From: Mobula hypostoma
Lineage: Eukaryota
NCBI RefSeq assembly: GCF_963921235.1
Contig: NC_086108.1
Coordinates: forward strand, 84,632,001 to 84,696,000
DNA length: 64,000 bases
Direction: 5' to 3'
Part shown: positions 63-64,000 of the stretch, one piece after another
How positions within the stretch are numbered: position 1 is the stretch's first letter
Layout: the number at the start of each line of letters is the position of its first letter
Position numbers and translations under genes: made by a program
Notes under the pieces: generated by a model
What the model saw: the letters and a program-made list of their open reading frames with translations, nothing else
Databases searched by the model: none
Told to the model about the DNA's origin: nothing

Positions 63-233
63 CACAATGTCCTCTGGATACAAGTTGTCACTGAAGGAAC
101 CATCATCGAAATTCACTTCATAGAAGGTTTCTTTACTCAATCCAACCACCTCACATTGGTAAAAGCGCCCATTTTTGTGTTTTGAGATGACCTTCTGCCC
201 AACTTCAATCTCATTTAAAGCTGATTTAGAACG
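63..233 (-). CDS. KDM4A: Tudor exon RSKSALNEIEVGQKVISKHKNGRFYQCEVV...FYEVNFDDGSFSDNLYPEDIV
   Basis: tag acceptor, GTG|gtaggt donor, 171 nt, phase 0 to 0. Confidence 0.95.
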
Positions 234-395: not shown

Positions 396-1446
396 CAACA
401 CACATCAAAGTTGCTGGTGAACGCAGCAGGCCAAGCAGCATCTGTAGGAAGAGGTGCAGTCGACGTTTCAGGCCGAGACCCTTCGTCAGGACTAACTGAA
501 GGAAGAGTGAGTAAGGGATTTGAAAGTTGGAGGGGGAGGAGGAGATCCAAAATGATAGGAGAAGACAGGAGGGGGAAGGATAGAGCCAAGAGCTGGACAG
601 GTGATAGGCAAAAGGGGATACGAGAGGATCATGGGACAGGAGGTCCGGGAAGAAAGGCAAGGGGGGGGGACCCAGAGGATGGGCAAGAGGTATATTCCGA
701 GGGACAGAGGGAGAAAAAGGAGAGTGAGAGAAAGAATGTGTGCATAAAAATAAGTAACAGATGGGGTACCAGGGGGAGGTGGGGCCTTAGCGGAAGTTAG
801 AGAAGTCAATGTTCATGCCATCAGGTTGGAGGTGACCCAGACGGAATATAAGGTGTTGTTCCTCCAACCTGAGTGTGGCTTCATCTTGACAGTAGAGGAG
901 GCCGTGGATAGACATGTCAGAATGGGAATGGGATGTGGAATTAAAATGTGTTGCCACTGGGAGATCCTGCTTTCTCTGGCGGACAGAGCGTAGATGTTCA
1001 GCAAAGCGGTCTCCCAGTCTGCGTCGGGTCTCGCCAATATATAAAAGGCCACATCGGGAGCACTGGACGCAGTATATCACCCCAGTCGACTCACAGGTGA
1101 AGTGTTGCCTCACCTGGAAGGACTGTTTGGGGCCCTGAATGGTGGTAAGGGAGGAAGTGTAAGGGCATGTGTAGCACTTGTTCCGCTTACACGGATAAGT
1201 GCCAGGAGGGAGATCAGTGGGGAGGGATGGGGGGGGACGAATGGACAAGGGAGTTATCTAGGGAGCGATCCCGGCGGAATGCAGAGAGAGGGGGGGAGGG
1301 AAAGATGTACTTAGTGGTGGGATCCCGTTGGAGGTGGCGGAAGTTACGGAGAATAATATGTTGGACCCGGAGGCTGGTGGGGTGGTAGGTGAGGACCAGG
1401 GGAACCCTATTCCTAGTGGGGTGGCAGGAGGATGGAGTGAGAGCAG
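396..1446 (-). mobile_element. Penelope-like element (Neptune-type) 3' fragment: linker, GIY-YIG endonuclease, 3' UTR/pLTR
   Basis: GVIYCVQCSRCGLLYIGETRRRLGDRFAEH motif, Cys-rich linker CKRNKCYTC, 9-bp TSD atgtctttg at 387-395 and 1447-1455. Confidence 0.9.
458..493 (-). ncRNA. Minimal type I hammerhead ribozyme motif, intact core
   Basis: Minus strand AGTC-CTGACGA-agggtctcggcct-GAAA-C-GTC-GACT; stem I AGTC/GACT. Confidence 0.8.
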
Positions 1447-3187: not shown

Positions 3188-3376
3188 CTCTGCTTGACTG
3201 GGTGTCTTGTGCCGACAGCAGGTGATGAAGACTACATACGGCCAGTCATCAGGTTGCATGATGACTCCAGCAGCATAGGCACAGGTCACATGAAAAGAAG
3301 TGGGGCAACGACCATGGGAGCACTGCACACAGCAACCACCAGTCTTTTTCATTCTCTTTTTACAGTAGAAGCATTT
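3188..3376 (-). CDS. KDM4A: PHD2 exon [32 protein letters not shown]...[21 protein letters not shown]
   Basis: cag acceptor, GAG|gtaggt donor, 189 nt, phase 0 to 0. Confidence 0.95.
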
Positions 3377-22158: not shown

Positions 22159-23635
22159 CAGGTGTCCCCCACTTTTCGAATGTTCGCTTTACGAAACCTC
22201 ACTGTTACGAAAGACCTACATTACTACCCTGTTTTCACTTTCAGAAGGTGTTTTCACTGTTACGAAGGCAGCGCGCGCCCCGAGCAGCCACTCTCCCCCG
22301 GATTCGGAACGGCATTGCTTTAACATGTTGCATTGAGCAGCCGTTAGCAAGATGAGTTCTAAGGTGTCGGAAAAGCCTGAAAGAGCTCGTAAGGGTGTTA
22401 CACTTAGCGTAAAACTAGACATAATTAAGCGTTTCGATCGTGGTGAACGAAGCAAGGACAAAGTGAGTTTGGCTTGTGGAAGCTGACGAAGATGATGTTG
22501 AAGAGGTTTTGGCATCCCATGACCAAGATCTGATAGATGAAGAGCTGATGCAATTGGAAGAGGAAAGGATAACAATCCAAACCGAATGCAGTAGCAAAAG
22601 TGAAGCAACTACGTGAGATTTTCACTGCAATGATAAAGTACGACTTTAATTTTGAAAGGGTACGTAGGTTTAGGGGATATTTGCAAGATGGTTTGAGTGC
22701 TTACAAAGAACTGTGTGATAGAAAAATGCGAGAGGTTCAGCAGTCAAGCAAGCCTTTCACATCAGCCACAGCAGACGACGAACCTCGACCTTCAACATCG
22801 AGGCGGGCAGTCATAGGAGATGAGCTGCCTGCTCTGATCGACGATGAGATGACACCCCCGTGTCCCACCACCCCAACCCCCGGGCCCTGGACAGATACTG
22901 TACCAATTTGCGGAGAACGCAGCGGTAGCCAGGAGGCACACAGCACATCTTTAAGAAAAAAGCCAAAATAAACATGCTAATTAATTACGTGCCTGGCAGC
23001 ACCTAATTAATCAGCATGTCTATTTCGGCTTTTTTCTTAAAGATGTTCTGTGTGCCTCCCGGCTACTGCTGCGTTCTTTGCGGCAATGTATCGGGTCGGC
23101 AGCTAGGAGGGTGGGGGCCACTACACCACCCAACCGGCGACGACTCAGTCTAACACACAATCATCAGTGTGCTCGGCGCTGTTTTCCCAATTCCTGTAAG
23201 TGATACTACACTGTACATACATTATTTTTACTTTATATAGGCTGTGTATTTTTACATGTTATTTAGATTGGCAGTTTCATAGTTTAAAGCTTACTGGAGA
23301 ACGTGTTTATGCCAACAGCGCTTGCGTGAGATTTTCTGCCAAGAGCACTTGCGTGAGACTTTCGCTACGGACATCTGTGCAGGCAATTGTTGTAGAGAAG
23401 TATTTCTACTTTATATAGGCTGTGTATTTATCATATCATTCCTGCTTTTACTATGTTAGTGTTACTTTAGGTTTTATGTGTTATTTGGCATGATTTGGTA
23501 GGTTATTTTTGGGTCTGCGAACGCTCACAAGATTTTCCCATATAAATAAATGGTAATTGCTTCTTTGCTTTACGACATTCTGGCTTACGAACCGTTTCAT
23601 AGGAACGCTCTACCTTCGGATGGCGGGCAAACCTG
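22159..23635 (+). mobile_element. Internally deleted pogo/Tigger-like DNA transposon
   Basis: TA TSDs, CAGGT...ACCTG termini, N-terminus MSSKVSEKPERARKGVTLSVKLDIIKRFDRGE joined to acidic C-terminal DVEEVLASHDQDLIDEELMQLEE. Confidence 0.8.
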
Positions 23636-24605
23636 TACAGTGGATTTAATTTGGCTTTTTATGACACTGATCAACAGAAAAAGGAAGTTTCTGTGTTAAA
23701 GTGAAGACAGATCTCTACAAAGTGATCTAAATTAATTACAAATATAAAACACAAAATAATTGATTGCATTATTATTCACCCCTTAATATGAAACACCAAG
23801 CCATCACTGGTGCAGCCAATTGGTTTCTGAAGTCACATAATTAGATAAATGGAAACAATCATGTGCAGTCAAGGTGTTTAAATTGACTGCAGTAAAAATA
23901 CACCTGTATCTGGTGAGTCAGTATCTTGGCAAAAACTACAACAGGAAGACAAAAGAACACTCCAAGGAACTCAGTGAAAAGGTTATTGAAAAGCACAAAC
24001 CAGGAGATAGATTCAAGAAAATTTTCAAGCCACTAAATATCCCTTGGAGTACAGTTCAGTCAATCACCAAGAAATGGAAAGAATATGGCACAGCTGTAAA
24101 TCTGCCTAGAGCAGGCCATCCTCAAAAAATGAGTGACCACACAAGAAGGGGACTAGTGAGGGAGGCCACCAAGAGACCTATGACAACTCTGGAGGAGTTG
24201 CAAGCTTCAGTGGCTGAGATCACAGAGACTGCACATACAACAACTGTTGTCTGGGTGCTTCACCAGTTGCAGCTTTATGGAAGAGTGGGCGAGAGAAAGC
24301 CACTGTTCAAAAACACTCACATAAAATGACAGTTAGAGTTTGCCAGAAGGCATGCGGGGGGCTCTGAAGTCAGCTGGAAGCAGGTTTCATGGTCCGATAA
24401 AACCAAAATTGCTTGTCGTAGGCCAAGCACTCCATATGATCAAAAATATACCATCTGTACCATGAAGCATGGTGGTGGCACCATCATGCTGTGGGGATGC
24501 CTCACTGCAGCAGGCCCTGGAAGGTTTGTGAAGATAGAGAGCAAAATGAATACAGCAAAATACTGGGAAAACCTGGAGGAAAACATGATGCAGTCTGCAA
24601 AAGAA

Positions 24606-24726
24606 CTCGGCCTGAAACGTCGACTGCGCCTCTTCCTATAGATGCTGCTTGGCCTGCTGCGTTCACCAGCAACTTTGATGTATGTTGCTTGAATTTCCAG
24701 CATCTGCAGAATTCCTGTTGTTTGAG
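24606..24726 (+). mobile_element. Penelope pLTR mini-insert, truncated within hammerhead stem II, inside the Tc1 transposase
   Basis: Near-identical to the reverse complement of 47992-48111. Confidence 0.85.
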
Positions 24727-26112
24727 CCTTGGCATGTGATTTGTTTTCCAGCAAGACAATGACCCCAAGCATAAAGCCAAAGCTACACAGGAATGGCTTC
24801 AAAACAACAAAGTTAATGTTCCAGAGTGGCCCAGTCAGAGTCTAGACCGCAATCCAATTGAGAATTTGTGGCTGGACTTAGAAAGGGCTGTTAACTCACA
24901 ATCCCCATGCAATCTGAAGAGCTTGAGTAGTTTTGTACAGAAGAATGAGGAGAAATTGCAATGTCCAGATATGCAAAGCTGATAGGACAGATATCCACAA
25001 AGATTCAAGGCTGTAATTGCTGCCAAAGGTGCATCTACTAAATACTGACTTGAAAGGGGCCAGTAATTATGCAACTAATTATTGTGTGCTTTATATTTGT
25101 AATTAATTTAGATCACTTTGTAGAGATCCATTTTCACTTTGACACAGAAGTATCTTTTTTGATCAACGTCAAAAAAAATTAAATCCACTGAGATTCAATG
25201 TTGTAAAACAATAAAGCATGAGAGCCTTCAAAGGGGAGTGAATACATTTTACAGGGTGTGTGTGTATAGTTTTTTTCTCTATTTATTTATCACATATTTC
25301 ATTGTACTGCTGCCATAAAGTTAACAAACTTCATGCCATATGTTGATGATATTAAATCTGATTCTGATGTATAGCGAGAGCAGAAAAGGGGGAAAGATAG
25401 TGTTGTATCCAATTACTATGAAATAAATCGGGATCAAATATAACAGTGGAGGAGGCAGCCATTTGGTCTTTTGAGTTCACATCAAATTTTTGAAAGGGCA
25501 ATGTAGCCAGTCCCATTACCCTGTCATTTTTCCATAAATCTGCATATTATTTTCCAGTCAAGGATCAATACAGTTCCCTTTTCACAGTAAACACACTATG
25601 GGGCAATGAATGGCAGGTTTCAACTTTTCTAAACAAATGTCCTTTTTTCAGTTACCTAAATTGTACCCTGTTTTTCAACCCTTCCACTAACTGGAACTGG
25701 AACTGTTTTGCATCAACTGTTTACGTGAGCACTTTTACCCTATCTTCCTTTCGTGTTCTGTACAAGGAGAACAATTGGAGTTTGTGCAGACCGATGCTTC
25801 TAACATATCCAATGCTGAACCATTCCAATACAGGCAAAACTTGGCACTTCAAGGCTGTCACATCCTTCCGAAAACAGATTTGATTATTATTCAGGTAATA
25901 TTCCAGCTCTGACAAAATTGGAGATAATTTCTTATGAAGCTTCAAACTAACCTCAATATCAAAGCGCAAAAACTATAATAAAAGCAGTTTGAAGTTAGAT
26001 CAAGTAGCATACTTGGACAGTGAAGTACAGTTAACAGTTCTGGTCAACCACCTTTTATCAGAACTCTCAGCTCTGACAAAAGATCTTCAACCTGAAACAG
26101 TTAAAACCATAA

Positions 26113-26248
26113 AGTCCTGATGAAGGGTCTCGGCCCGAAACGTCGACTGTAACTCTTCCAATAGATGCTGCCTTGCCTGCTGTTTCCACCAGCATTTTGG
26201 GTGTGTTGCTTGCATTTCCAGCATCTGCAGATTTCCTCGTGTTTGCGT
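26113..26248 (+). ncRNA. Penelope pLTR mini-insert with intact minimal hammerhead (26113-26148)
   Basis: AGTC-CTGATGA-agggtctcggccc-GAAA-CGTC-GACT. Confidence 0.8.
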
Positions 26249-26254
26249 TTTTAA

Positions 26255-29090
26255 AAACTATAAGCTAAAGGAGCAGAATTAGGCCATTCAGCCCATTGAG
26301 TCCATCCTGACTCATTTATTATCACTGTGGAGTCCACTTTCCTGCCCTCTCCCCATAACCTCTGACACCTGACTAATCAACAACCCATCAACGGCTGCTT
26401 AAAGTATACTCAATGACTTGACCTCCACAGCTGTTTGTGGCAACAAATTCCACAGATTCACTACCCTCTAGCTAAAGAAATTCCACCTCATGTCTGTTCG
26501 AAATGGATGTCCCCCTATCTTGAGGCTGTGCCCTCTGGTCTGTGACTTACCCACCACAGGAAACATCCTTTCCGTATCAACTCTATCTAAACCTTTTAGT
26601 ATTCAATAGGTTTCAATGAGATCTCCCCTCATTCTTCTCAACTCCAGATTAACCCTTTCCTTCCTGGAATCATTCTGCTGAACCACCTCTGTACCCTGTC
26701 CAATGGCAGAAAATCTTTTCCTAGATATGGAGCTCAAAGTTGCTCACAATATTCCAAGTCCAGTCTGACCAATACCTTAAGCAGCCTCAGCATTATAGTC
26801 TTGCTCTTATATTCTAGTCCTCTCAAAATGAATGCTAACATTGCATTTGCCTTCCTTACCACCAACTCAACCTGCAAGTTAACCTTTAGAGAACCCTATA
26901 CAAGGACTCCCAAGTCCCTTTGCACCTTTAATTTTTCAATTTTCTTCCATTTAGAAAATAGACCACACCTTCATTCCTTCTACCAGAGTGCATGACCATA
27001 TACTTCCTTACACTATAAACCATCTGTCATTTCTTTGCCCATGCTTCTGATCTGTCTGCAGCCTCCTTGCTTCCTCAACACCACCTGCCCCTCTACCTAT
27101 CTTCACATCATCTACAAACTTGGCCACAAAGCCATCAATTCCATCTTCCAAATCACTGGCATATAATGTAAAAAGAGGTGGTCCCAACACCGACCCCTAT
27201 GGAACACCACTAGTCCCTGGCAGCCTACCAAAAAAGGTTCCCTTTATTCCCATTCCATGACTCCTGCCAATCAGACAATATTCTATCCAATGCTGGTATC
27301 TTTCCTATAATATCATGGCCTCTTACCTTGTCAAATGCCTTCTGAAAAATCTAAGTACACAAAATCCAACAATTCACCTTTGTCTCTCCTGCTTTCTCTT
27401 TCCTCAAAGAATTCCAACAGATCAGTCAGGCTGACCAGGGCCATTTTATCATGTGTCTCCAAGTACCCTGAAACCGCATTCTTAATAATGGACTCCAACA
27501 TCTTCCCAACCAGTGAGGTCAGGCTAGCTGGCCTATAATTTCGTTTCTTCTGCTTCCCTCCCTTCTTAAAGAGTGGAGTGATATTTATAATTTTCCAGTC
27601 CTCCAAAACCATTCCAGCATCCAGTGATACTTGAAAGATCATTATTAATGCCTCCACAATCTCTTCAGCTACCTTCTTCAGAACCCTGTGATGTCGTCCC
27701 TCTGGTCCAGGTGACTAATCAACATTCAGCTTCCCAAGCACTTTCTCCTTAGTAACAGCATCTACACTCACTTCTGCCCAGACTGTGTCATATTTCTGGT
27801 GTACTGCTTTTGCCTTCCACTGTGGAAGACTGACACAAAATTCTTAAGTTCACCTGCCTTTTCTTTGACCCCCACTATTGCCTCTCCAGTGTCATTTTTC
27901 AGTGGTCCAATATCAACTTTAACCTTTCCACTAATCTGTGCTATATTATGTGCCCTCCCTTTTCCTTTTCTGCCACAGTTGCTTCATCCTCCCTTTACGA
28001 TACTTCACCTTTGGGATGTATCTATCCTGCGCCTACTGAATTGCCCCAGAAACTCCATCCATTGCTGTTGTCATTATCCCTGCTAGTGTCCTTCCAAACA
28101 ACTTTGGCCAGCTCCTCTCTCATGCCTCTGTAATTCCCTTTACTCCACTGTAATACTGATACATCTGACCTTACTGCACAGTCCTGATGAAGGGTCTCAG
28201 CCCGAAACATCGACTGTTTATTCTTTTCCATAGATTCTGCCTGACCTGCTGAGTTCCTCCAGCATTTTGTGTCTATTGCCCTATCATCTGTCTGTCCTTC
28301 CTCAAAGTCTCACTACACTCTACTGCCTCATCCTCAGCCACATCACTCCAGGTGTCTCTTTCACACCCCACAGGTTAGTCCCGTTTTTCCAGCTTTCTAC
28401 CTATACCCAACTCCCTTTTCCTACCAATGTCTTAAGTGCCAATTTGTACCATGACTTCGAGTTGCTCACACTCCCCCTTTAGAATGCTTGGACCCGATCT
28501 GAGACATCCCTGAAACAGGCACTTGGGAAGCAACATATTATCCAGGTGTCTCTTTCACACCCACAGAATCTACTGTCTGTTCTACTAATTATGGAATCCC
28601 CCATTACCACTGCACGTCTCTTTCCCCACCTCACTCTCTTCAGAGCCGGAGACCTGGTTGCTGCAGCTTCCTCCAGTGGATTGCTCCACCACCCCCAAAA
28701 CCCCAACAGTATCCAAAATGATATACTTATTATTGACGGGAACAGCCAGAGGAGTACTTCTACACTGGCTGTCTATTCCCTTTCCCTCTCCTAATAGTTA
28801 CCCAGCTACCCAACTCCTATAACTTGGGGTTGACTACCTTCCTGTAACTCCTATATATCACCTAATTTTCCTGTAAGAGCCAAAGGTCATTGATCTGCAG
28901 CTCCAGTTCCTTAACATGGTCTCTAAAGGAGCTGCAGCTGGATGTTCTTCATGTAAATGTACTTTTGAGAGAGACCGGAGGGCTCCCAGGGTGTCCACCT
29001 CTAAAACAAAGAACATATCACATATCTCAATGCACTAGCTATGTATTAATATACAAAGAAAGAAAAATCTTACCAGAAACTTACTTAGAA
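26255..29090 (-). mobile_element. Decayed CR1 with several deletions, including an ORF1 esterase-like remnant
   Basis: RAVVMGDSII (GDSL/SGNH-like), NYRPASLTSLVGK, YLDF and AKFVDD motifs. Confidence 0.85.
28178..28279 (+). ncRNA. Penelope pLTR mini-insert with hammerhead (28178-28217), nested in CR1
   Basis: ACAGTC-CTGATGA-agggtctcagccc-GAAA-CATC-GACTGT; 6-bp stem I. Confidence 0.72.
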
Positions 29091-29941: not shown

Positions 29942-32900
29942 TTACATTAAATGAAAATATCGAATAAAAGGTCCCCAAATCTGTTCAAATTTAAATGAAG
30001 AATCATAAAGGTTACTTCTAATTTTCTCCAGATTCAAACATAAAATCGTCTGAGAAAACCAAAAAAAGGTAGTTGGAGCATTAAGCTCTTTCCAATGTTG
30101 TAAAATACATCTTTTCGCCATCAAAGTAAGAAATGCAATCATTCTACGGGCTGAAGGGGAAAGATTACTAGAAATTTTAGGTAGTCCAAAGATAGCAGTA
30201 ATAGGGTGAGGAGAGATATCTATATTTAATACCTTAGAAATAATATTGAAAATATCTCTCCAAAAAGTTTCCAAAGTAGGGCAAGACCAAAACATATGAG
30301 TTAAAGAGGCTATCTGCCCCGAACATCTATCACAGAAAGGATTAATATGCGTGTAAAAACGCGCTAACTTATCTTTGGACATATGTGCTCTATGAACCAC
30401 TTTAAATTGAATTAGGGAATGTTTAGCACAAATAGAGGAAGTATTAACTAATTGTAAAATCTGCCCCCAATCATCCACAGAGATGGTAAGCCCCAATTCC
30501 TGTTCCCAATCTACCCTAATCTTATCAAATGGAGCTTTCCTAAGTTTCATAATAATATTATAAATCATAGCCGATGCACCTTTCTGACATGGATTAAGGT
30601 TAATTATCGAATCTAAAATATATATAGGAGGAAGCATTGGAAAGGAAGAAAGTATAGTACTTAAGAAATTTCTAACTTGTAAATATCTAAAAAAATGTAT
30701 TCTTGATAAGTTATATTTATTAGATAATTGTTCAAAAGACATAAGGGAACCATCTAAAAATAAATCCAAAAACCGTAAAATACCCTTAGTCTTCCAAGTT
30801 TGAAAAGCGCGATCCGTAAAAGAGGGAGGAAAAAATATGTTACCTAAAATAGGAATCGCTAACCCGAATTGATTAAGATCAAAAAATTTTCTGAATTGAA
30901 ACCAAATACGCAAAGCATATTTAACGATCGGGTTAGAGACCTGCTTAAGGCGTTTCGAATCAAAGGGAAGAGATGAACCTAAAATAGAACCAAGTGTATA
31001 ACCCTGAACAGATTGTAATTCCAATGCTACCCATTTAGGAATAGATAGTATGTCCCGGTCAAGTAACCAAAATTTCATATGTCGAATATTAATAGCCCAA
31101 TAATAAAATCTAAAGTTAGGTAATGCTAAACCTCCATCTCTCTTAGCTTTCTGTAAATGTATTTTACCCAGTCTCGGATTCTTATTCTGCCAAATAAATG
31201 AAGAAATTTTAGAGTCGACTTTATCAAAAAAAGATTTAGGAACGAAAATTGGTAATGCCTGAAACACATATAAAAATTTTGGCAAAAAAAACATCTTAAC
31301 TGCATTAATACGACCAATCAAAGTTAAATATAAGGGAAACCATTTAGATGAAAGTTGAGTAATATGGTCTATTAATGGTAAAAAGTTAGTCTTAAATAAA
31401 TCTTTATGTTTACAAGTAATTTTAATCCCAAGATATGAAAGGTAATTATTAATCAATTTAAATGGAAATTTATAATATAAGGGAAGATGTTTATTAATCG
31501 GAAAAAGTTCACTCTTACTAAGATTTAATTTATAACCTGAGAAAAGACCAAATTGTGCTAATAACTCTAAAACAGCAGGAATAGATCTCTCAGGATTAGA
31601 AATATATAAAAGTAAATCATCAGCATAGAGTGATAATTTATGGAACTTTAATCCCCGAGTTATCCCAGTAATATTTGAAGATTCTCGAATAGCAATTGCA
31701 AGAGGTTCTAATGCAATATCAAATAATAGGGGACTAAGAGGACAGCCTTGTCGAGTACCACGAAAGAGAGGAAAAAAAGGTGAGTTTAAAGAGTTAGTAC
31801 GAACCGAGGCTACAGGGGAGTGATATAACAGTTTAATCCAGGATATAAATTTCAAGCTAAAATTAAACATTTCAAGCACCTTAAATAAATAAGGCCATTC
31901 TACTCTATCAAAAGCTTTCTCGGCATCTAAAGAAATAACACACTCAGGAACATTTTGTGAGGGAGTATAAACGATATTTAACAATGTACGAATATTATAA
32001 AAAGAGTAACGACCTTTAATAAAACCCGTTTGGTCTTCCGAAATAATAGAAGGAAGTACTTTTTCTAGTCTATTTGCTAATAACTTAGAAAAAACTTTAG
32101 AATCAACATTTAATAAAGATATTGGTCTATAAGATGCACATTGAGCAGGGTCTTTATCCTTCTTTAGTATTAAAGAAATTGATGCTCTATTAAAAGATTC
32201 CGGAAGTTTACCAAGTTTCAAAGAAGCCTCAAAAACCTTATAGAGCCAAGGAATCAATAAAGAAGCAAAACATTTATAAAATTCAACGGTAAACCCATCA
32301 GGGCCAGGAGCTTTCCCCAGATTCATAGAAAAAATAACATTCTTAATCTCATCCATTGTAATGGAAGTATCTAATAAAGAAGACATATCCTGTGAAATCT
32401 GAGGGAAGTCTAACTTATCTAAAAAATCATTCATATATTTAGAATCTCGAGGAGACTCTGATTGATATAAAGAAGAATAGAAATCACAAAAGGTTTGATT
32501 AATCCCCACATGATCCAATATCAATCGATCATTTTGGTTATAAATCTGATTGATTTGAGATTTAACATAATTAGATTTCAATTGATTAGCCAGCAGCTTG
32601 CCAATTTTATCACTATGAACATAAAAATCACTTCTTGTTTTCTTTAATTGGTTTACAATCGAGGACGAGAGTAGTAAACTGTGTTCCATTTGAAGTTCAG
32701 TTCTTTGTTTGTATAGCTCCTCAGAAGGAGCCATAACATATTTCTTATCAATTTCTTTAATCTTGTCCACAATTGCCATCTCCTCCTGCTTCTGTTTCTT
32801 CCTCAAAGCAACGGAATACGAAATAATCTGACCCCGAATATGGGCTTTAAAAGTGTCCCAAAGAGTGTTAACCGAAATATCTTCTGTATGGTTAATTGTA

Positions 32901-33718
32901 AAAAAAAGCTCAATCTGTTCATTCATAAAATTAACAAAGTCCGAGTCCTGAAGCAACAGCGAATTAAAACGCCATTGTCTATTGTTTGGTATATTGGCCA
33001 TAATTTTAATAGAAAGCTTAAGTGGAGCATGATCCGAAATGGTTATAGAATCATAATCACATTTAATCACTGAAGGAATGAGACGAGAGTCAATAAAAAA
33101 ATAATCAATTCTTGAATAGGAATGATGAACATGTGAAAAAAAGGAAAAATCTTTTTCCTGAGGATGCAGAAAACGCCAAATGTCCGTCGACCCAGAATCA
33201 GAAAGAAAAAAATTAATCAAATTTGCAGATTTATTAGGTAAAGTCCGTAAAGGAGCCGAACGGTCCAAAGCTGGAGATAAACAGGTATTAAGATCTCCGC
33301 CCCAAATCAATGAAAACTCGTTCAAATTCGGAAACTGATCAAACAATGATTTATAAAATTCCGGACAATCCATATTAGGAGCATAAACATTAACCAAAAC
33401 TACTTTTTTATTAAATAGTAAACCACTAACCAATAAAAATCTACCATTCGGATCAGAGATAATATCCTGTTGTATAAAAGTAACTGAGGAATCTATAAAA
33501 ATAGAGACGCCTCGAATCTTAGCATTGGAGTTCGAATGAAATTGTTGTCCCTTCCAGAATTTGAAAAAACGTAGTCTGTCCCCCCTCCGTACATGGGTCT
33601 CTTGTAAAAATAAAATTTGTGCTTTAAGTCTCCGGAACACTTTAAAAACTTTTTTTCTTTTAATAGGATGATTAAGACCATTAGTATTCCAGGAGACAAA
33701 ATTAATAATAGACTCCAT
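29942..33718 (-). CDS. L1 ORF2p (APE endonuclease, RT, CCHC), 1258 aa from the first ATG
   Basis: SWNTNGL, LQETH, GGDLN, SRIDY, SDH; GTRQGCPLSP, YADD; CDRCSGQIASLTHMFWSC; no stops. Confidence 0.96.
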   Translation of the reverse strand: MESIINFVSWNTNGLNHPIKRKKVFKVFRRLKAQILFLQETHVRRGDRLRFFKFWKGQQFHSNSNAKIRGVSIFIDSSVTFIQQDIISDPNGRFLLVSGLLFNKKVVLVNVYAPNMDCPEFYKSLFDQFPNLNEFSLIWGGDLNTCLSPALDRSAPLRTLPNKSANLINFFLSDSGSTDIWRFLHPQEKDFSFFSHVHHSYSRIDYFFIDSRLIPSVIKCDYDSITISDHAPLKLSIKIMANIPNNRQWRFNSLLLQDSDFVNFMNEQIELFFTINHTEDISVNTLWDTFKAHIRGQIISYSVALRKKQKQEEMAIVDKIKEIDKKYVMAPSEELYKQRTELQMEHSLLLSSSIVNQLKKTRSDFYVHSDKIGKLLANQLKSNYVKSQINQIYNQNDRLILDHVGINQTFCDFYSSLYQSESPRDSKYMNDFLDKLDFPQISQDMSSLLDTSITMDEIKNVIFSMNLGKAPGPDGFTVEFYKCFASLLIPWLYKVFEASLKLGKLPESFNRASISLILKKDKDPAQCASYRPISLLNVDSKVFSKLLANRLEKVLPSIISEDQTGFIKGRYSFYNIRTLLNIVYTPSQNVPECVISLDAEKAFDRVEWPYLFKVLEMFNFSLKFISWIKLLYHSPVASVRTNSLNSPFFPLFRGTRQGCPLSPLLFDIALEPLAIAIRESSNITGITRGLKFHKLSLYADDLLLYISNPERSIPAVLELLAQFGLFSGYKLNLSKSELFPINKHLPLYYKFPFKLINNYLSYLGIKITCKHKDLFKTNFLPLIDHITQLSSKWFPLYLTLIGRINAVKMFFLPKFLYVFQALPIFVPKSFFDKVDSKISSFIWQNKNPRLGKIHLQKAKRDGGLALPNFRFYYWAINIRHMKFWLLDRDILSIPKWVALELQSVQGYTLGSILGSSLPFDSKRLKQVSNPIVKYALRIWFQFRKFFDLNQFGLAIPILGNIFFPPSFTDRAFQTWKTKGILRFLDLFLDGSLMSFEQLSNKYNLSRIHFFRYLQVRNFLSTILSSFPMLPPIYILDSIINLNPCQKGASAMIYNIIMKLRKAPFDKIRVDWEQELGLTISVDDWGQILQLVNTSSICAKHSLIQFKVVHRAHMSKDKLARFYTHINPFCDRCSGQIASLTHMFWSCPTLETFWRDIFNIISKVLNIDISPHPITAIFGLPKISSNLSPSARRMIAFLTLMAKRCILQHWKELNAPTTFFWFSQTILCLNLEKIRSNLYDSSFKFEQIWGPFIRYFHLM

Positions 33719-34443
33719 AAATCCTAAAATCAACCCACAACAAGGAGGATTGACAATAGGCGTGACCCACAAACCCGGAGAGGAAACAGAACATACAAAA
33801 GATACCGGGGAAAAGGACGCAACCAGTACTTCAATAATGTATATAGCCCAAAGAAAAACAAACTAAAACGTGAAGCCCCTCCCACCACCCCCCACCCCAA
33901 GACCCCAAGGCAAAATCTAAAGCAGACCCGCCAGAAAGAAGCAAGCGCTAAAACTACCCCCATGACTTCCGGTATACGCTCCCTAAAAAAAAGGTATAAA
34001 TATGAAAAGGATCAGCTAATTGTAAAACAGTAAAAAAATAAGTAAAAAAAAAGTTAGCTCAATTAGAATACACACAGAACAGAACAAAAGCCGGAAAATA
34101 TATATTAAAAAAAACCACAATAAACCTCAAACTCATGAATAGACACAGCAACAAAAAAAAAATAGGATTATTAACATAAAGTGATTATAAAAAGCAAAAC
34201 AGAATAAAATTTAAAAAAAAACTACAAAATTTAAGGCCGCACAGGAAATACGTAAGATGACAAAAGGGAAGTAACCACCCAGAATCCCCTGGGAAAAGAA
34301 AGAAATGACGCAGTTAAAAAGAAAGTTTAGCAGCCATATTAAGAAATCAAAAGTAAACTTTTCTGCCCAAATAGGGCACAGAAAAGTTAAAACCAACCAA
34401 TTCACAGCCTCCGATCAACGGAGAAAATTAAAAAAAAAGGCAA

Positions 34444-35343
34444 TTAAGATGTTGAAGATGAAAGTTGATCCAGATAACTCTGGGCATCCGATGGAGAATC
34501 AAAAAAACGAAGGGCTCCATCTAACATGCGAATCCTTAGACGTGCAGGGTACAGCAGCGCTGGTCTTAAATCCATCTTATAGAATTCCGACATCACGGAT
34601 CTGTAACGGACCCGTTGGTCCCAGATTGGTTTACTGAAATCTTCCACGAATCGGAACTTAAGATCCGAAAAATCAATGAAACCTTTAGATCGAGCGAATC
34701 GAAACAGTCTCTCCTTGTCTTGAAAGTAATGAAAACGTAAAATAACATGCCTAGGTCTATCTGACCTAGACGAGTATGATGGGATTCTGTGAACACGATC
34801 CAGTAGCGGTGGTTGGTCAGGAAATACAGTAGGGAATGCATCTTTTAAAAGTTGAGAGAAATATTTCATGGGGTTGTTAGCTTCAACGGCTTCTCTCACG
34901 CCGATCATTCTTAAATTCTGCCGTCGCATTCTAGATTCCAAGTCAGAGTTTTTAAAAGTCAAAAAGTCAAGTTTCTTCTTCATTACATTAATTGTTTCTT
35001 CGATTTTCCCCATCTTAAGCTCACTTTGTTGCGCGAATTTTTGAAGATCAGATATAGCCGACTGATGTTCCGCAATACATGTTTGCATCTTATCAATTAA
35101 ATCGGCAATTTTCTGGAAATTAGTTGAGATTTCCGCATGAATCAGATCTTTAACAAAGCCTGCAATTTCCGTACGAATCATCTCCCTAACAGAGGTTGAA
35201 ATTTCCCTCTGAATTAACTCCGATATCGCTTTCAAAGTCACCGGTGATTCAGTCGGAGGGAGATCCGTAGCTTTCGGTTTAGCCGAAGGTTTACCATCCT
35301 TGCCGTTTTTCCCGTTCTTAGACATAGCAGATCTAAGTATCAT
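34444..35343 (-). CDS. L1 ORF1p (coiled coil, RRM, CTD), 299 aa
   Basis: DLESRMRRQNLRMIGVRE, DRVHR, RPRHVILRF, FVEDFS and LLYPARLRI motifs. Confidence 0.92.
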   Translation of the reverse strand: MILRSAMSKNGKNGKDGKPSAKPKATDLPPTESPVTLKAISELIQREISTSVREMIRTEIAGFVKDLIHAEISTNFQKIADLIDKMQTCIAEHQSAISDLQKFAQQSELKMGKIEETINVMKKKLDFLTFKNSDLESRMRRQNLRMIGVREAVEANNPMKYFSQLLKDAFPTVFPDQPPLLDRVHRIPSYSSRSDRPRHVILRFHYFQDKERLFRFARSKGFIDFSDLKFRFVEDFSKPIWDQRVRYRSVMSEFYKMDLRPALLYPARLRIRMLDGALRFFDSPSDAQSYLDQLSSSTS

Positions 35344-36355
35344 CCAATTGTCAGAGAGTTCAGTTTAATTCAAAGTATTATAAAAATTGATGCCTTAATG
35401 GTTAATTAAAGTATAGCTGACCATAGAGTAAAAAAACTCAGAGGTAATGGAGCGAGTCAAGAACGCGACTTCACTCCATGAGCGCTACCGGAAGTCCCCA
35501 ACGTAAAATTTCTATGCGGCATTTTACACATTAAAGATGGAATATTTGAACATTAGTTAAATCCTTGGTACTACAGTTCCTTGCAGTGTTAATTACAAAC
35601 TGACATTCGCCTAGTATGTCTCTAACCCACAAAGAAAAATGACAGTTGTGCAGATAAACAGAGTCCAGGTTGTGGATCATTCAAATACCTGCACAGCTTC
35701 TTAGACAAGTGAAAACTATTTGTCAAAGCATGAGATTCAAAAAACGAGTTGTCTTTTTCATATGTCAAACAGAAAAATTCTTGATTAAATCTAAATGACA
35801 TTTTCCATGCTTGTGGCCACTATATTCCCATATCCCCAATGTACAAAACATAAAACTTCAATTTTTTTCCTATTATTTGTAAGAAAGAATTCAATATCGT
35901 CCAATTCCCCACAGCTAGGTCATTTTGGCACAACAAATGCATAGTATTCATGAAGTAAAAATTAAATTCCCAATCTCCAGGATGCCTCCACTGCAAATCA
36001 CTGTTTTCACAAAGGGAACAAAAATCTTTGGGAACAGCCCTGGAAGAATTCTAGCTTTAGTTAAAAGCAATTATAAAAATATTCAATAAGCAAAAATCTC
36101 AAGTTTAATGTGCATAGTCATGATTCATCAACTGATCTATATAAAATCAAGCTAAAGCAGCTTCTGTACACTTGCAGTTCCTCCATAACTGATGAAATAC
36201 TTGAAAGGTTTTTCCTGTGGCAATACTCAGCAATGAATAAAAAAAATTTGATGGTCACGGAGATGTACATATTATTTGTAGTTTGCAGATAACTTTCCAG
36301 CTCTCATACAAAGCTTCCTTTTTTATACCACAAAAAGAGCCAATCCAACACTTAC

Positions 36356-36572
36356 TTGCGTGAACACATACACAGCACTTTGCACATGTAATCAGGGTGC
36401 TTGTTCCATCTTCCTCAATGTACGATGTGGGAAGGCTGAGATCAACATGGTCACTTCCCGATGTGAAGCACATCTCCGGAACCAAAGGCTTAGTTTTCGC
36501 TTTGTTTCTGAGTATGCTTGCATCCAAATGTTGGGTTTTGTTTCTGAAAGTATGACTCTCCTGACAGTCTAC
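36356..36572 (-). CDS. KDM4A: Exon VDCQE...TKPLVPEMCF...CAKCCVCVHA(S), PHD1 part
   Basis: tag acceptor, A|gtaagt donor, 217 nt, phase 0 to 1. Confidence 0.94.
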
Positions 36573-37329: not shown

Positions 37330-37432
37330 GCAAGCAACACACACAGAATGCTGGAGGAACTCAGCAGGCCAGGCAACATCTACGGAAAAGAGTACAGTCG
37401 CCGTTTCAGTCCGAGACCATTCATCAGGGCCC
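37330..37432 (-). mobile_element. Penelope pLTR mini-insert with mutated hammerhead
   Basis: Minus strand CTGATGA-atggtctcggact-GAAA-CGGC-GACT; cleavage triplet is GGC rather than GTC. Confidence 0.75.
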
Positions 37433-42539: not shown

Positions 42540-43270
42540 CTTAGAGTACAAATTAGTCTAATGCAGAACCTCTTCCCTCACCACCATTCAAGACCCCAAA
42601 CAGTCCATTCAGCAAGTCTGTCATGTTCCTCAATTGTATCTGCTGCTTCCAGCGTGGCCTTCTCTACATTGGTGAGACCCGACAGAGATCGGGGGAACAC
42701 TTTATTCATTACCTGCGCAAGATCTCCCAGTGCTAGCCATTTCAATTCAGCTTTCCATTCCCTATCTGACATGTCTATCCATGCCCTCCTCTACTGCCAC
42801 AAGGAGGAGCAACACCTCATATTCTTTCTGGGTACTCACCAACCTGATGGAATAAACATCGATTTCTCCAACTTTTGGTAATTTAAACTAACCCCTCTCC
42901 TCTCTTTTTCCTTTATCCATTCTGGTTACCTTTTCTCCCCATTTTCTTCTCTCCACTTCCCCACAAACTCCCACTGGCTCCCCTCCTCCTTCCCTATCTT
43001 CCACTGTTCTCTATTAGATTCCTTCTTCAGCCCTTTATCTCTTTCACCTAACCCCTCCCAGCTTCTTATTTCACCCACCCACCTACCTCACCTGGTCTCA
43101 TCTAGCATTTGCTAGATTGTACTTCTCCTCCACTACCTTATTCTGGCTTCTACCCCCTTCCTTTCCTGTCACGATGAAGGGCTTGGCCTGAAACATTGAC
43201 TATTTATCCTCCTCCATAGATGCTGCCTGACTTAGAGTTCCTCCAACATTTTGTGGGTGTTGCTCAAATT
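42540..43270 (+). mobile_element. Decayed Penelope fragment: GIY-YIG remnant, 3' UTR and degenerate hammerhead
   Basis: ASHFNS...SDMSIHALLYC...EEQHLIF...QPDGINIDFSNF; cacgatga...gaaacattgac at about 43170-43200. Confidence 0.85.
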
Positions 43271-47124: not shown

Positions 47125-50100
47125 ACAAGATGGTGTCGCAAACAGCGGCCATACCAACTTTACAGTGTACTACTGATTTCTGCAATTTCCATCCCATTTC
47201 TTTTTAAAATGCTAATAATCACATTAGATATGATCGACTGACTTTTCTGAACATTGGGAAGACGGCATTTACCCGCAATGTCCCGCCTTTTCTACACTGG
47301 GAACCTCTGTTTACATGATCCACGGGAGGCTTATTTATTACACCACTCTTACCTCGTAACATGGTGCTGAAGGCAAGAGAGAAGGGCCGGCATCCTGGTG
47401 AGGTTGAGACGGCATGCTAATTGGCCGCCGTTCCCTAATGTACTCCTGGCTACCGCTCCGTTACTGGACAACAAGCTGTGCGAACTGAGAGCCAGAATCT
47501 CCTATCAGCGGGAAACAAAGGAGTGTAACATTTTGTGCTTCGTGGAAACCTGGTTGACAGAGGAGATACTGGATCATGCCATCAAGTCCTCTGGGTGCTC
47601 CCTGTTCCAGGCAGATAAGTCTAAAAACCTCTTTGGAAGAGCAAAGGTGGGGTATCCTTCACAGTCAATAATGCTTGGTGCAACCCCCGAAATGTTCATG
47701 CCCTCAAATCCTTTTGTTCCTCAGATCTGGAGTACCTTGTGCTGCTGTGTAGACTTTATTGGCTGCCTAGGGAGTCCACTGTTGTTATTATCACAGCTGT
47801 GTATATTCCGCCACAGACTGATACTGACCTGGCTCGGCTCTCAAGGAACTGTACGAAACCATCAGCACCCTGGAGACTCTACACCCGGAGGCTGCTTTCA
47901 TCGTCGCCGGAGACTTTAATTGAGCGTCCCTGACTAAAGTCTCTCCAAAGTTTTGTCAACACATCCAGGTGAGTAAACGGAGATAGTATACTCAAACAAC
48001 AGGAATTCTGCAGATGCTGGAAATTCAAGCAACATACATCAAGGTTGCTGGTGAACGCAGCAGGCCAAGCAGCATCTATAGGAAGAGGCGCAGTCGACGT
48101 TTCAGGCCGAGACCCTTCGTCAGGACTAATATAAGATAGTATCCTCGACCACTGCTACTTTCCCTTTTGCAGTGCTTACAAAGTGCTCCACCATCCACCG
48201 CTTGGAAAGTCTGATCACTCCTTCATCCTGCCTCTGGACACTTACAGGCAGAAGTTGAAACAAGAGGCGATCATAGTTAAAACGTTCCACTGTTGGACTG
48301 ACCAATCAGTCTCCATGCTACAGGACTGCTTTGATGATGTCAACTGGAATATCTTCCGTGATGAAGATATATCCGAGTTCATGGAAGGGGTCACAAGCTT
48401 CATCCAGAAGGACAGAGGATGTTGTCCACCCTCCCCCCCTAAAAAAAAATCGGTCAGGGTCTATCCAAACCAGAAACCCTGGATCAACAGCTCCGTGCAC
48501 GCTGCACTTACAGCATGAGACAGAGCATTCACTGCTGGTAACCACCAGGAACTCAAGAAATGCAGCTATGATCTACACTAAGTCATCAAGGCAGCAAAAC
48601 GACAATACAGGAACAAGTTCCAGACATAACTCTCCACCAACAACACCCACAGCCTATGGCAAAGTGTACACACCATCAGAGACTTCAAAGCTAAATGCAG
48701 CGGTGCCACTAACATTACTGCCTCTCTCCCAGACAAGCTAAATTGTTTTTACACTTGGTTCGATGCCACCAAAAATGAGTCCCCGAGGAGAGCTGCCGAT
48801 GTGACCTGCACCGTGGCCATCTCTGATGCTGAAGTACGCAGGTGCTTCCAACGAGCGGACAGCCACAGGGCTGTGGGACCGGACAGCATCTCTGTGCGGA
48901 TACTCGAAAAGTGCACCGCACAACCAGCTGGCATGTCTGCAGACATTTTAATCTCTCCCTCTCCCAGTGTAAAGTGCCCTCCTGCTTCAAAACATCCACC
49001 ACTGTCCCTCTACCTAAAAAGACCCAGGTAACATATCTGAACAACTGGTGTCCTGTCACACAACTCAATAATAAGCAAACGCTTTGAGAGGCTGGTCAAG
49101 GACTACATCTGCAGCATGCTACCGCCCACACTGGACCCCGTACAATTCACCTACCGACACAACCGATCGACAGATGACACAATAGCCACAGTTCTTCACA
49201 CCATTCTTACACACCCGGAGAAGAGGGATGCTGATGTGAGAATGCTGTTCTTGGGACTACAGTCCAACATTCAACACCATAATTCCCTCCAGGCTTGACA
49301 AGAAGCTCAGAGACCTTGGCCTTCAAGTCCAAGACCAACTGCCTTGTGCAGTTGGTCTTGGACTTAGTGTCAGATCGCTGGAAGGTGGTAAGAGTGGGCT
49401 CCCTCACCTCTGTCCCTCAGGACTGTGTCTTACTCCTTTATTCTCTGTATACCTATGACTGTGTTGCCACCCACAGCTCCAATCTCCTAATTAAATTTGC
49501 TGACAACACGACACTGATTGGCCTAATCTCAAATAGTAACAAGGCAGCCTTACAGAGAGGAGGTCATCACTCTGACACAGTGGTGTCAAGAAAACACTTC
49601 TCTCTCAATGTTGCAAAAACAAAGGAGCTAGTTGTGGACCACAGGAAGAATGGAGACAGGGTAACCCCTATTGACATCAATGGATCTGGGGTTGAGAGGG
49701 TGAACAGCTCTAAGTTCCTCGGTATACACATTACTGAGGACTTCACTTGGTCTGTACATACTGGCTATGTGGTGAAAAAAGCACAATAGCTCCTCCTTCA
49801 CCTCAGATGGCTGAATAAGTTTGGCATGAGTCTCCAAATCCTTAGGACTTTCTACAGAGGCACAATTGCGAGCAGCCTGACTGGCTGTATCACTGCCTGG
49901 TATGGGAACTGTATTTCCCTCAATCGCAGGACTCTGAAAGAGTGCTGCAGACAGCCCAGCACATCTGTGGATGTGAACTTCCCACTATTCAGGACATTTA
50001 CAGCGACAGGTGCGTAAAAAGGGCCTGAAGGATCATTGGGGTCACCCCAACGACAAACTGTTCCAACTGCTACCATCCAGGAAACGGTACTGCAGCATTA

Positions 50101-53568: not shown

Positions 53569-53973
53569 CTGTTTAAAAAAAAAGCAGGAAATTTTCAACT
53601 ATCCATCTTAAAACAACCAGGCAAAGCATTTATTTCTTAATCACATAATTTCTCCAGTATTTCCAAGGCTTGTTCCAATTAAAATATTAACTGATAAATT
53701 ATACAAAAGAAGCATTTTCTGCCATTGGCCTTCATTAATGTTATTCTATTGTTCCTAGTTGAGAGATGTTACTACTGTTTTTAGCACGGTATTGCCAGCT
53801 AATGTTCACTGCCAGCTAATGTTCACTTTCGGGTTACTTCAGGGAATAATTGCATTTAAACAAAGATGATGCAAGTTGGTCCAATTAACATTTTTAATGT
53901 ATCAGTAAACATGCTCTGATAAAATAGGCAGCATATTCAAAAAAGAATTAAAACCCATTATTTGCAATTTCAA

Positions 53974-54070
53974 GCAACACACATCAAAGTTGCTGGTGAA
54001 TGCAGCAGGTCAAGCAGCATCTGTAGGAAGAGGTGCAGTCGACGTTTCAGGCCGAGACCCTTCATCAGAA
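53974..54070 (-). mobile_element. 97-nt Penelope pLTR mini-insert beginning at the hammerhead CTGATGA box
   Basis: Perfect 14-bp TSD atttgcaatttcaa at 53960-53973 and 54071-54084. Confidence 0.88.
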
Positions 54071-63903: not shown

Positions 63904-64000
63904 AGCAACGCACATCAAAGTTGCTGGTGAACGCAGCAGGCCAGGCAGCATCTGTAGGAAGAGGTGCAGTTGACGAAGGGTCTCGGCCTGAAACGTCGAC
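63904..64000. mobile_element. Penelope pLTR with an inversion junction at the hammerhead (runs off window edge)
   Basis: Minus-strand copy up to gcagttgacg, then plus-strand tgacgaagggtctcggcctgaaacgtcgac. Confidence 0.8.

What the first reader, a model, noticed from the sequence alone, without database searches (positions are those of the whole stretch)
458..493. Minimal hammerhead ribozyme repeated through the window, traced to a Penelope element
Seen: the 3' end of the GIY-YIG element reads AGUC-CUGACGA-stem II-GAAA-C-GUC-GACU on the minus strand. This has both hammerhead core boxes, a stem I (AGUC/GACU), a GUC cleavage triplet and a stem III reduced to the palindrome ACGU. Related copies lie at about 24606, 26113, 28178, 37396, 43170, 48092, 54037 and 63970, so nine recognisable copies in 64 kb. 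Established: Penelope-like elements carry minimal type I hammerheads that cleave as dimers, so the motif class itself is known. Inference: this is a high-copy ribozyme family in this genome that ORF-based annotation cannot see, with at least two subfamilies.
Basis: partly seen in the sequence, partly recalled or inferred. Interest (0 to 1): 0.75.

Follow-up and report, generated by a model that had tools for sequence, protein, structure and literature searches.

The report
Penelope transposon's minimal hammerhead, mostly uncut
This is a tiny, predicted self-cutting RNA motif of a kind already known from Penelope-type jumping genes, here present in over 50,000 exact genomic copies whose insertion ends pile up at the motif's front edge rather than at its predicted cut site, which suggests the copies were made from uncut RNA.

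Summary
Observation confirmed. Window 493→458 is a complete minimal type I hammerhead motif in the 3' pseudo-LTR of a 5'-truncated Penelope-like element (Neptune-type linker, GIY-YIG). All nine listed places are family copies, but only 3 of 9 are complete, intact motifs. The genome holds 50,694 exact matches to a 31-nt pattern (control 0). Full-length elements carry two same-sense motifs about 3.5 kb apart around a 1,043-codon open frame. Unrelated hammerhead families in the genome keep the core with fully different, paired stems. The class is in print (Cervera and de la Peña 2014); cleavage is untested here.

Additions: copy 5' ends pile up at the first base of stem I (1,553 junctions) against 54-116 at control positions and 120 at the predicted cut. 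So most inserted copies likely come from uncut RNA that begins at the ribozyme. One subfamily spread with a weakened A6C core. The scan noted this family and the 5' pile-up before, on other DNA of this genome. Verdict: new member of a known kind, with a testable lead on what PLE hammerheads do.

The parts
458..493 (-). Minimal type I hammerhead motif. Stem I 5' strand 493-490; C3-A9 489-483; extra A 482; stem II 481-470 (closing pair G10.1·U11.1); GAAA 469-466; C15.2-G16.2 465-464; U16.1 463; C17 462; predicted cut between 462 and 461; stem I 3' strand 461-458
396..1446 (-). 5'-truncated Penelope-like element copy of the young subfamily, with the short-form 3' end. Flanked by a 9-bp target-site duplication at 387-395 and 1447-1455; its last letters also fit the element's edge
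   Evidence: 92-97% identical to the 20 long copies
787..1257 (-). End of the element's ORF: CX4CxxC linker and GIY-YIG endonuclease; a frame break lies near 1214-1257
   Evidence: Pfam GIY-YIG E 2e-4, just under the curated cut-off
494..786 (-). Pyrimidine-rich 3' UTR / upstream part of the pseudo-LTR, ending in a splice-acceptor-like tract just before stem I
   Evidence: sequence; acceptor use not tested
24606..24724 (+). Stub starting inside stem II, with the tail; no first core box
26113..26245 (+). Stub starting at the first base of stem I; intact motif with G10.1-C11.1; tail present
28179..28278 (+). Older-subfamily stub starting at stem I; palindrome broken
37335..37428 (-). Older stub starting at the core; decayed
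42568..43269 (+). Older, decayed copy with a GIY-YIG remnant (42568-42875) and a degenerate motif near 43170
47993..48129 (-). Young stub starting 2 nt before stem I; intact motif, tail, 9-bp duplication
53969..54068 (-). Young stub starting at C3; short 3' end; 14-bp duplication
63904..64000 (.). Head-to-head pair: minus arm 63975-63904; plus arm from 63971, continuing with its tail beyond the window (L052)

Best explanation
The motif is the minimal hammerhead carried in both pseudo-LTRs of a young, very abundant Penelope-like retrotransposon; it is predicted to cut only as a protein-assisted pair, and most inserted copies were likely made from RNA that had not been cut. Shown: motif anatomy, its place in both pseudo-LTRs about 3.5 kb apart, copy number, two 3' end forms, and 5' ends piling up at the first base of stem I. 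Inferred: the element's RNA likely starts at that base, so the hammerhead would fill its first 36 nt. Reverse transcription would start internally at the two 'tail' sites, as shown for the anole element. From the 5' tail it would run off the RNA end and give the 100-135 nt stubs that fill this window. From the 3' tail it would give long or truncated copies. A lone copy is predicted to fold into an inactive rod. Cutting after GUC would need two copies to pair through ACGU and would be a rare or late step, not the step that defines the template.
For: Anatomy fits the min-HHR description in PMC4209133. 10 of 20 long copies fetched carry two same-sense motif matches 3,507-3,517 nt apart. Of these 20, 9 were picked because one search showed a long 5' end (8 of 9 have both); 2 of the other 11 have both. 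Three of the ten (L174, L182, L184) have an unbroken 1,043-codon frame. 3' ends are bimodal: 60 at +88..+102 and 66 at +120..+133, of 143 young copies, as in PMC11167929. 5' ends: 36 of 143 fall in -7..+5, against 39 in 83 flanking positions (p 7e-13). Genome-wide junction counts: -14: 116; -4: 1,553; +20: 69; +28 (cut site): 120; +32: 54. 11 of 30 junctions at -4 are plain, several with clean duplications. One full-length copy itself starts at -4. The -4 A sits in a YYANWYY context (initiator consensus recalled). Monomer and dimer folds favour inactive pairings. PMC11167929 found the anole hammerhead protein-dependent and dispensable for insertion, with no reads ending at the cut. A subfamily with an A6C core has 207 exact matches, and 5 of its first 30 also start at stem I.
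Against: No cleavage or RNA 5' end was measured. The cut site shows about twice the junctions of its two neighbouring controls (120 vs 69 and 54), so some cut-RNA templates are possible, although 16 of 30 inspected are inversion joints and 3 of 30 are internal changes. A circle religated at the cut would leave no junction, so these counts cannot exclude it. 19 of 30 junctions at -4 are inversion joints. Only 1 of 11 plain ones has a G before the junction, so there is no cap-copy signal (T was excluded by the pattern). The peak is broad (-7..+5). The five anchors differ in sequence and were not normalised to their own totals. In D. virilis Penelope the start site lies upstream of an intron that ends at helix I, not at the ribozyme. 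Nearest-neighbour energies ignore Mg2+ and core contacts.
Confidence: 0.68

Rival explanations
1. The two pseudo-LTR copies cut as a dimer and release a unit-length RNA that circularises. The circle is the template for long and partial-tandem copies (model of Cervera and de la Peña); the stubs come from a separate linear RNA.
For: Two same-sense motifs bracket exactly one unit. Partial tandems are common among full-length copies. Religation would be seamless. There is a two-fold excess of junctions at the cut. The architecture is kept across unrelated families.
Against: A circle has no end and cannot give the -4 peak or full-length copies that start there. Anole hammerhead mutants still insert in vitro. 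An A6C subfamily spread. Naiads lack canonical hammerheads yet form the same tandems.
Confidence: 0.2
2. In this lineage the motif no longer cuts at all and is kept only as a promoter or protein-binding sequence.
For: Stem II sequence is nearly invariant across the four subfamilies, with no two-sided change. The young family has G10.1·U11.1. An A6C subfamily exists. An inactive fold is predicted. Sense and antisense copies are 5:5 in the window, most of which lies within a minus-strand gene.
Against: Conservation ends at the two ends of stem I in three other organisms' runs. Other families keep the core with fully replaced paired stems. A6C is a natural, weakly active core variant (PMC3088659 passages; PMC7151607 results).
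Confidence: 0.12
3. The 5' pile-up is not a transcript start. The enzyme stops there at a bound protein (pyrimidine tract or splice-acceptor-like site) or at the hairpin that the young family can form over the core, and then folds back or joins the target.
For: A pyrimidine tract and AG directly precede stem I in all four subfamilies. An alternative hairpin over -16..+10 is the predicted fold with upstream sequence. Most junctions at -4 are inversions. The peak is broad.
Against: Stubs of older subfamilies, whose upstream sequence differs, start at the same place. A stop at the ribozyme's own structure would fall at its 3' side, near +31, where counts are at background.
Confidence: 0.25

Closest known systems
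Minimal hammerheads (min-HHR) in pseudo-LTRs of metazoan PLEs, including fish Xena, Poseidon and Neptune (Cervera and de la Peña 2014, PMC4209133; main text parts 1-2 of 4 read)
   Same: Type I; no loop 3; palindromic 15.2-16.2; extra base after A9; 4-5 bp helix I; in both pseudo-LTRs; mostly solo copies, with nearby opposite-strand pairs
   Different: Helix II is 4 bp, not the 7-8 bp of the Schistosoma motifs. The dominant subfamily closes it with G·U. 50,694 exact matches against about 4,000 (coelacanth) and 9,000 (Xenopus) descriptor hits; methods differ. An A6C subfamily and a 5' pile-up at stem I were not in the parts read.
Poseidon element of Anolis (PAc; Frangieh et al. 2024, PMC11167929; parts 1-2 of 4 read)
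   Same: Two 3' end forms 30-40 nt apart; tail continuous with the start of the ORF region; no sign that cut RNA is the main template
   Different: This element has the CX4CxxC linker absent from Penelope/Poseidon. Its open frame begins about 85 nt after C3, not at stem II.
Neptune clade of EN+ PLEs (Craig et al. 2021, PMC8557442; passages read)
   Same: RT with DKG, then CX2-5CxxC linker, then C-terminal GIY-YIG with CCHH; partial tandems, inverted 5' copies, tail
   Different: No tree was built, so Neptune versus Nematis is by anatomy and by reported vertebrate range only
Animal non-LTR retrozymes (bioRxiv 10.64898/2026.07.22.740005; part 1 and passages read)
   Same: Type I hammerhead of pseudo-LTR origin; one chondrichthyan genome was included in that survey
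   Different: Window copies are dispersed stubs or head-to-head pairs with target duplications, not tandem arrays

Membership tests
PLE minimal type I hammerhead | Core boxes CUGANGA, GAAA and UH triplet | tested here: met
   (focal copy; 3 of 9 window copies complete)
PLE minimal type I hammerhead | Helix I of 4-5 bp closing on the cut site | tested here: met
   AGUC/GACU plus U·G; C-G at that place in older subfamilies
PLE minimal type I hammerhead | Unpaired base after A9, and helix II closed by a 10.1-11.1 pair (usually G-C) | tested here: met
   A482 unpaired; the pair is G·U in the focal subfamily, and G-C at 26113, in subfamilies C and D and as the commonest form by depth in 3 of 4 other organisms' runs laid
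PLE minimal type I hammerhead | Helix III reduced to a palindrome that can pair between two copies | tested here: met
   ACGU at 466-463; the dimer can be drawn but is not the predicted minimum
PLE minimal type I hammerhead | Present in both pseudo-LTRs of full-length elements | tested here: met
   10 of 20 long copies, 9 of the 20 pre-selected
PLE minimal type I hammerhead | Self-cleavage as dimer or with element protein | not testable with these tools
   needs an in vitro assay
Rfam hammerhead models | Covariance-model match | tested here: not met
   no hammerhead family at E<=5; not filed under an Rfam family
EN+ Penelope-like element, Neptune type | Single ORF with RT and C-terminal GIY-YIG | tested here: met
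   1,043-codon frame; RVT_1 E 4e-5 and GIY-YIG E 0.004, both under curated cut-offs; YIDD motif
EN+ Penelope-like element, Neptune type | CX2-5CxxC linker, CCHH in the nuclease, DKG motif | tested here: met
   linker at residue 910 and DKG near 448; CCHH read by eye from the printed protein, since my pattern for it did not match
EN+ Penelope-like element, Neptune type | Partial tandems, inverted 5' copies, optional 30-40 bp tail | tested here: met
EN+ Penelope-like element, Neptune type | RT tree placement in Neptune rather than Nematis | not tested
   no reference PLE proteins were at hand
Non-LTR retrozyme | Two or more consecutive tandem units, each with a hammerhead | tested here: not met
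   none of the nine window places is a same-sense tandem; not surveyed genome-wide

The most novel reading that the evidence does not exclude
The element's RNA starts on the first base of the hammerhead. The stretch from there to the tail is then repeated at both RNA ends, like a retroviral R region, so the cDNA could jump from the 5' copy to the 3' copy and rebuild the pseudo-LTR without any cut or circle. The hammerhead dimer would act as a brake that removes the cap or the 3' priming site, which would explain why weakened cores (G·U closure, A6C) still amplified.
Probability: 0.3. Interest if true: 0.65.

Novelty: new member of a known kind. Interest (0 to 1): 0.36.

Why it matters
Hammerheads in Penelope-like elements are known, but their job is still called unclear (PMC8557442 passage). 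This genome has enough young copies to read template ends from DNA alone, and the ends fall at the ribozyme's front edge, not at its cut. That gives one-experiment tests (capped-end mapping, cyclic-phosphate sequencing, core mutants) of whether cutting is part of transposition, a brake, or a relic. For annotation, most of the roughly half a million profile hits are predicted inert stubs and should not be counted as active ribozymes.

Tried and rejected
Rfam gave no hammerhead hit; its four hits are elsewhere in the window and under their gathering scores. Folding z-scores do not single out the motif. Sequencing runs: no RNA holder listed. Contigs of four runs laid on the pseudo-LTR/ORF junction showed no start pile-up and no splice joint at the acceptor-like site; contigs cannot show RNA ends, so this is not used either way. 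A cap-derived G at plain -4 junctions was not seen (1 of 11). A downstream promoter element like D. virilis RGACGTGY does not fit at the expected spacing (by eye). The peak at the cut site that a cut-template model predicts is at most two-fold. Linking the other hammerhead families to a PLE ORF failed: tblastn hits in those loci were 65-93% identical to the focal ORF and look like neighbouring copies of the focal family. The retrozyme reading was rejected for the window. Lünse et al. (RNA Biol 14:1499) was not seen; I know it only from its title and a review passage (PMC6765202), and it may already list this motif or variant cores. Supplement file 1 of PMC4209133 could not be searched; file 2 had no shark or skate entry for the terms asked. 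bioRxiv supplements were not seen and may list the chondrichthyan family. Searches for a printed account of this family or of the 5' pile-up listed none that I recognised; the library lacks most subscription journals and Repbase.

Full report
Observation. The minus strand at 493-458 reads stem I AGUC, core CUGACGA, an extra A, stem II GGGU/GCCU around a 4-nt loop, GAAA, CG, UC and GACU. The predicted cut lies between 462 and 461. Below, positions are counted from C3 = 0 (window 489), so stem I starts at -4 and the 3' cut product would start at +28. The profile gives 10 hits at 9 places, and 0 hits on the reversed 1.339 Mb pool. A structural descriptor passes 3 of the 9 (458, 26113, 48092), and 117 places in the pool against 0 in the reversed pool; the pool is enriched for copies by design. 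Rfam does not see the motif, and its folding energy is ordinary.

What carries it. The focal copy ends a 1.05-kb, 5'-truncated element flanked by a 9-bp duplication, with a GIY-YIG frame upstream. Walking into the genome gave full-length copies. 10 of 20 long copies have two same-sense motif matches 3,507-3,517 nt apart; 9 of the 20 were pre-selected for a long 5' end, and in one of the ten the 5' motif begins at +1. Three of the ten have an unbroken 1,043-codon frame. That frame holds DKG, RT motifs with YIDD, a CX4CxxC linker and the nuclease (both Pfam scores are under the curated cut-offs). By the description in PMC8557442 (passages) this is a Neptune- or Nematis-type element; a 2026 preprint reports only Neptune and Poseidon in vertebrates (passage). 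That the host is a cartilaginous fish is my recollection from its repeats and comes from no call.

Abundance. A 31-nt pattern has 25,323 + 25,371 = 50,694 exact matches in 3.48 Gb, control 0. A 34-nt downstream pattern has 77,266. Forty dispersed 10-kb stretches give 66 profile hits (about 570,000 extrapolated) and 6 complete intact motifs (about 50,000; small sample). At 156 hits per Mb against 165 in the dispersed stretches, the window is typical.

Is the structure under selection? In four subfamilies, upstream and downstream sequence differs while the 36-nt block stays. Changes inside it are N7, loop 2, U or C at 11.1, CpG decay and, in one subfamily, A6C. No two-sided stem change was seen within the lineage. 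In contigs of four runs of other organisms (one gave only 16 contigs), fits break off at 456-459 and 492-493. Differences at 15% or more inside the block are CpG transitions, N7, position 11.1 and position 1.4. A pattern that forbids the focal stem II found 333 places, control 12. Among the first 30, other families pair stems that the pattern did not ask for: stem I AGAA/UUCU with stem II GCC-CUC/GAG-GGC, and stem I UUGCA/UGCAA with stem II GUUGC/GUAAC. A third family has a 7-8 bp stem II but no adjacent stem I, and 8 of the 30 loci are decayed or shifted copies of the focal lineage. The architecture is therefore real. A6C has 207 exact matches. It is a natural core variant with low activity (PMC3088659 passages) that prefers Mn2+ (PMC7151607 abstract and results).

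How it likely works. A lone copy is predicted to keep stems I and II but pair its core with the cut site; with upstream sequence, a different hairpin hides the core. The drawn active dimer scores -9.5 kcal/mol, against -20.0 for two monomers and -28.3 for the best dimer. These numbers ignore Mg2+ and tertiary contacts, but they fit the low in vitro activity in PMC4209133 and the protein dependence in PMC11167929.

Where copies start and end. I mapped ends for 172 distinct copies and kept the 143 at 88% identity or more; copies cut by a locus edge or ending before +60 were dropped first. The sample was 664 kb taken without regard to content, plus 70 loci anchored on the downstream pattern. 3' ends fall in two groups, 60 short and 66 with the tail, matching the two internal priming sites of the anole element. 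5' ends pile up: 36 in -7..+5, against 39 in 83 flanking positions. Genome-wide I counted junctions as three mismatching letters before a 31-nt anchor: 116 at -14, 1,553 at -4, 69 at +20, 120 at +28 and 54 at +32. Of 30 junctions at -4, 19 are head-to-head and 11 plain, several with clean duplications. Of 30 at +28, 16 are head-to-head, 3 are internal changes and 11 are plain. Five of 30 A6C copies also start at stem I.

Reading. A cut at the 3' copy would remove the priming tail, and a cut at the 5' copy would give copies starting at +28; such copies are rare. Linear templates were therefore mostly uncut (inference). The simplest source of an end at -4 is a transcription start (inference; about 0.6). 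An enzyme stop at a bound protein or hairpin, and a seamless circle for long copies, remain open. Against my reading: there is a two-fold excess at the cut, no cap-G signal, a broad peak and anchors that were not normalised. D. virilis also starts upstream of an intron that ends at helix I.

Comparison and verdict. The motif class, dimer model, tail, inverted pairs and solo copies are all in print (PMC4209133; PMC11167929; PMC8557442; PMC3846280 passages; PMC6765202 passages). The 5' pile-up and the A6C subfamily were not in what I read, but Lünse et al. and several supplements were not seen. I obtained the junction counts before consulting the scan's notes, which record the same family and pile-up on other DNA of this genome; these are not independent support. 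New member of a known kind; interest 0.36.

Noticed in passing
window 63-233, 3188-3370, about 36312-36572 (all minus strand): Exons of a KDM4/JMJD2-type gene (Pfam Tudor_2 E 5e-17, zf-HC5HC2H_2 E 2e-12, weak PHD_2). The focal element lies in the sense direction in the intron before the Tudor exon, and its acceptor-like tract (about 497-493) is some 260 nt upstream of that exon.
   Followed up: partly
window 29942-35364, minus strand: Apparently intact L1-type LINE with open ORF1 (306 codons, Transposase_22) and ORF2 (1,306 codons; endonuclease, RT, zf-RVT).
   Followed up: partly
L321-L350; 207 exact matches genome-wide: Subfamily with core CUGCCGA (A6C), a variant described in a phage hammerhead as Mn2+-preferring; here amplified in an animal retrotransposon.
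   Followed up: partly
L291, L294, L295, L297 and others; L296, L307, L312; L298, L302, L303: At least three other hammerhead-like repeat families. The commonest has a 7-8 bp stem II but no stem I next to the core. A further stem II type appears in the list on C5 and C9. Carrier elements were not identified.
   Followed up: partly
window 22951-23038: Long near-perfect hairpin (Rfam mir-7131 at 49.8 bits, under its gathering score of 74); more likely a fold-back transposon remnant than a microRNA.
   Followed up: no
window 23841-24841: Tc1/mariner transposase remnant into which the 24606 stub is inserted.
   Followed up: no
window about 300-395 and 1447-1600: The focal element appears to have landed inside an older short repeat; a similar repeat lies near 1900-2190.
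   Followed up: no
G000:C63:13592813-13593151: Four same-strand motif matches 61-122 nt apart: a short tandem array of the hammerhead, retrozyme-like.
   Followed up: no
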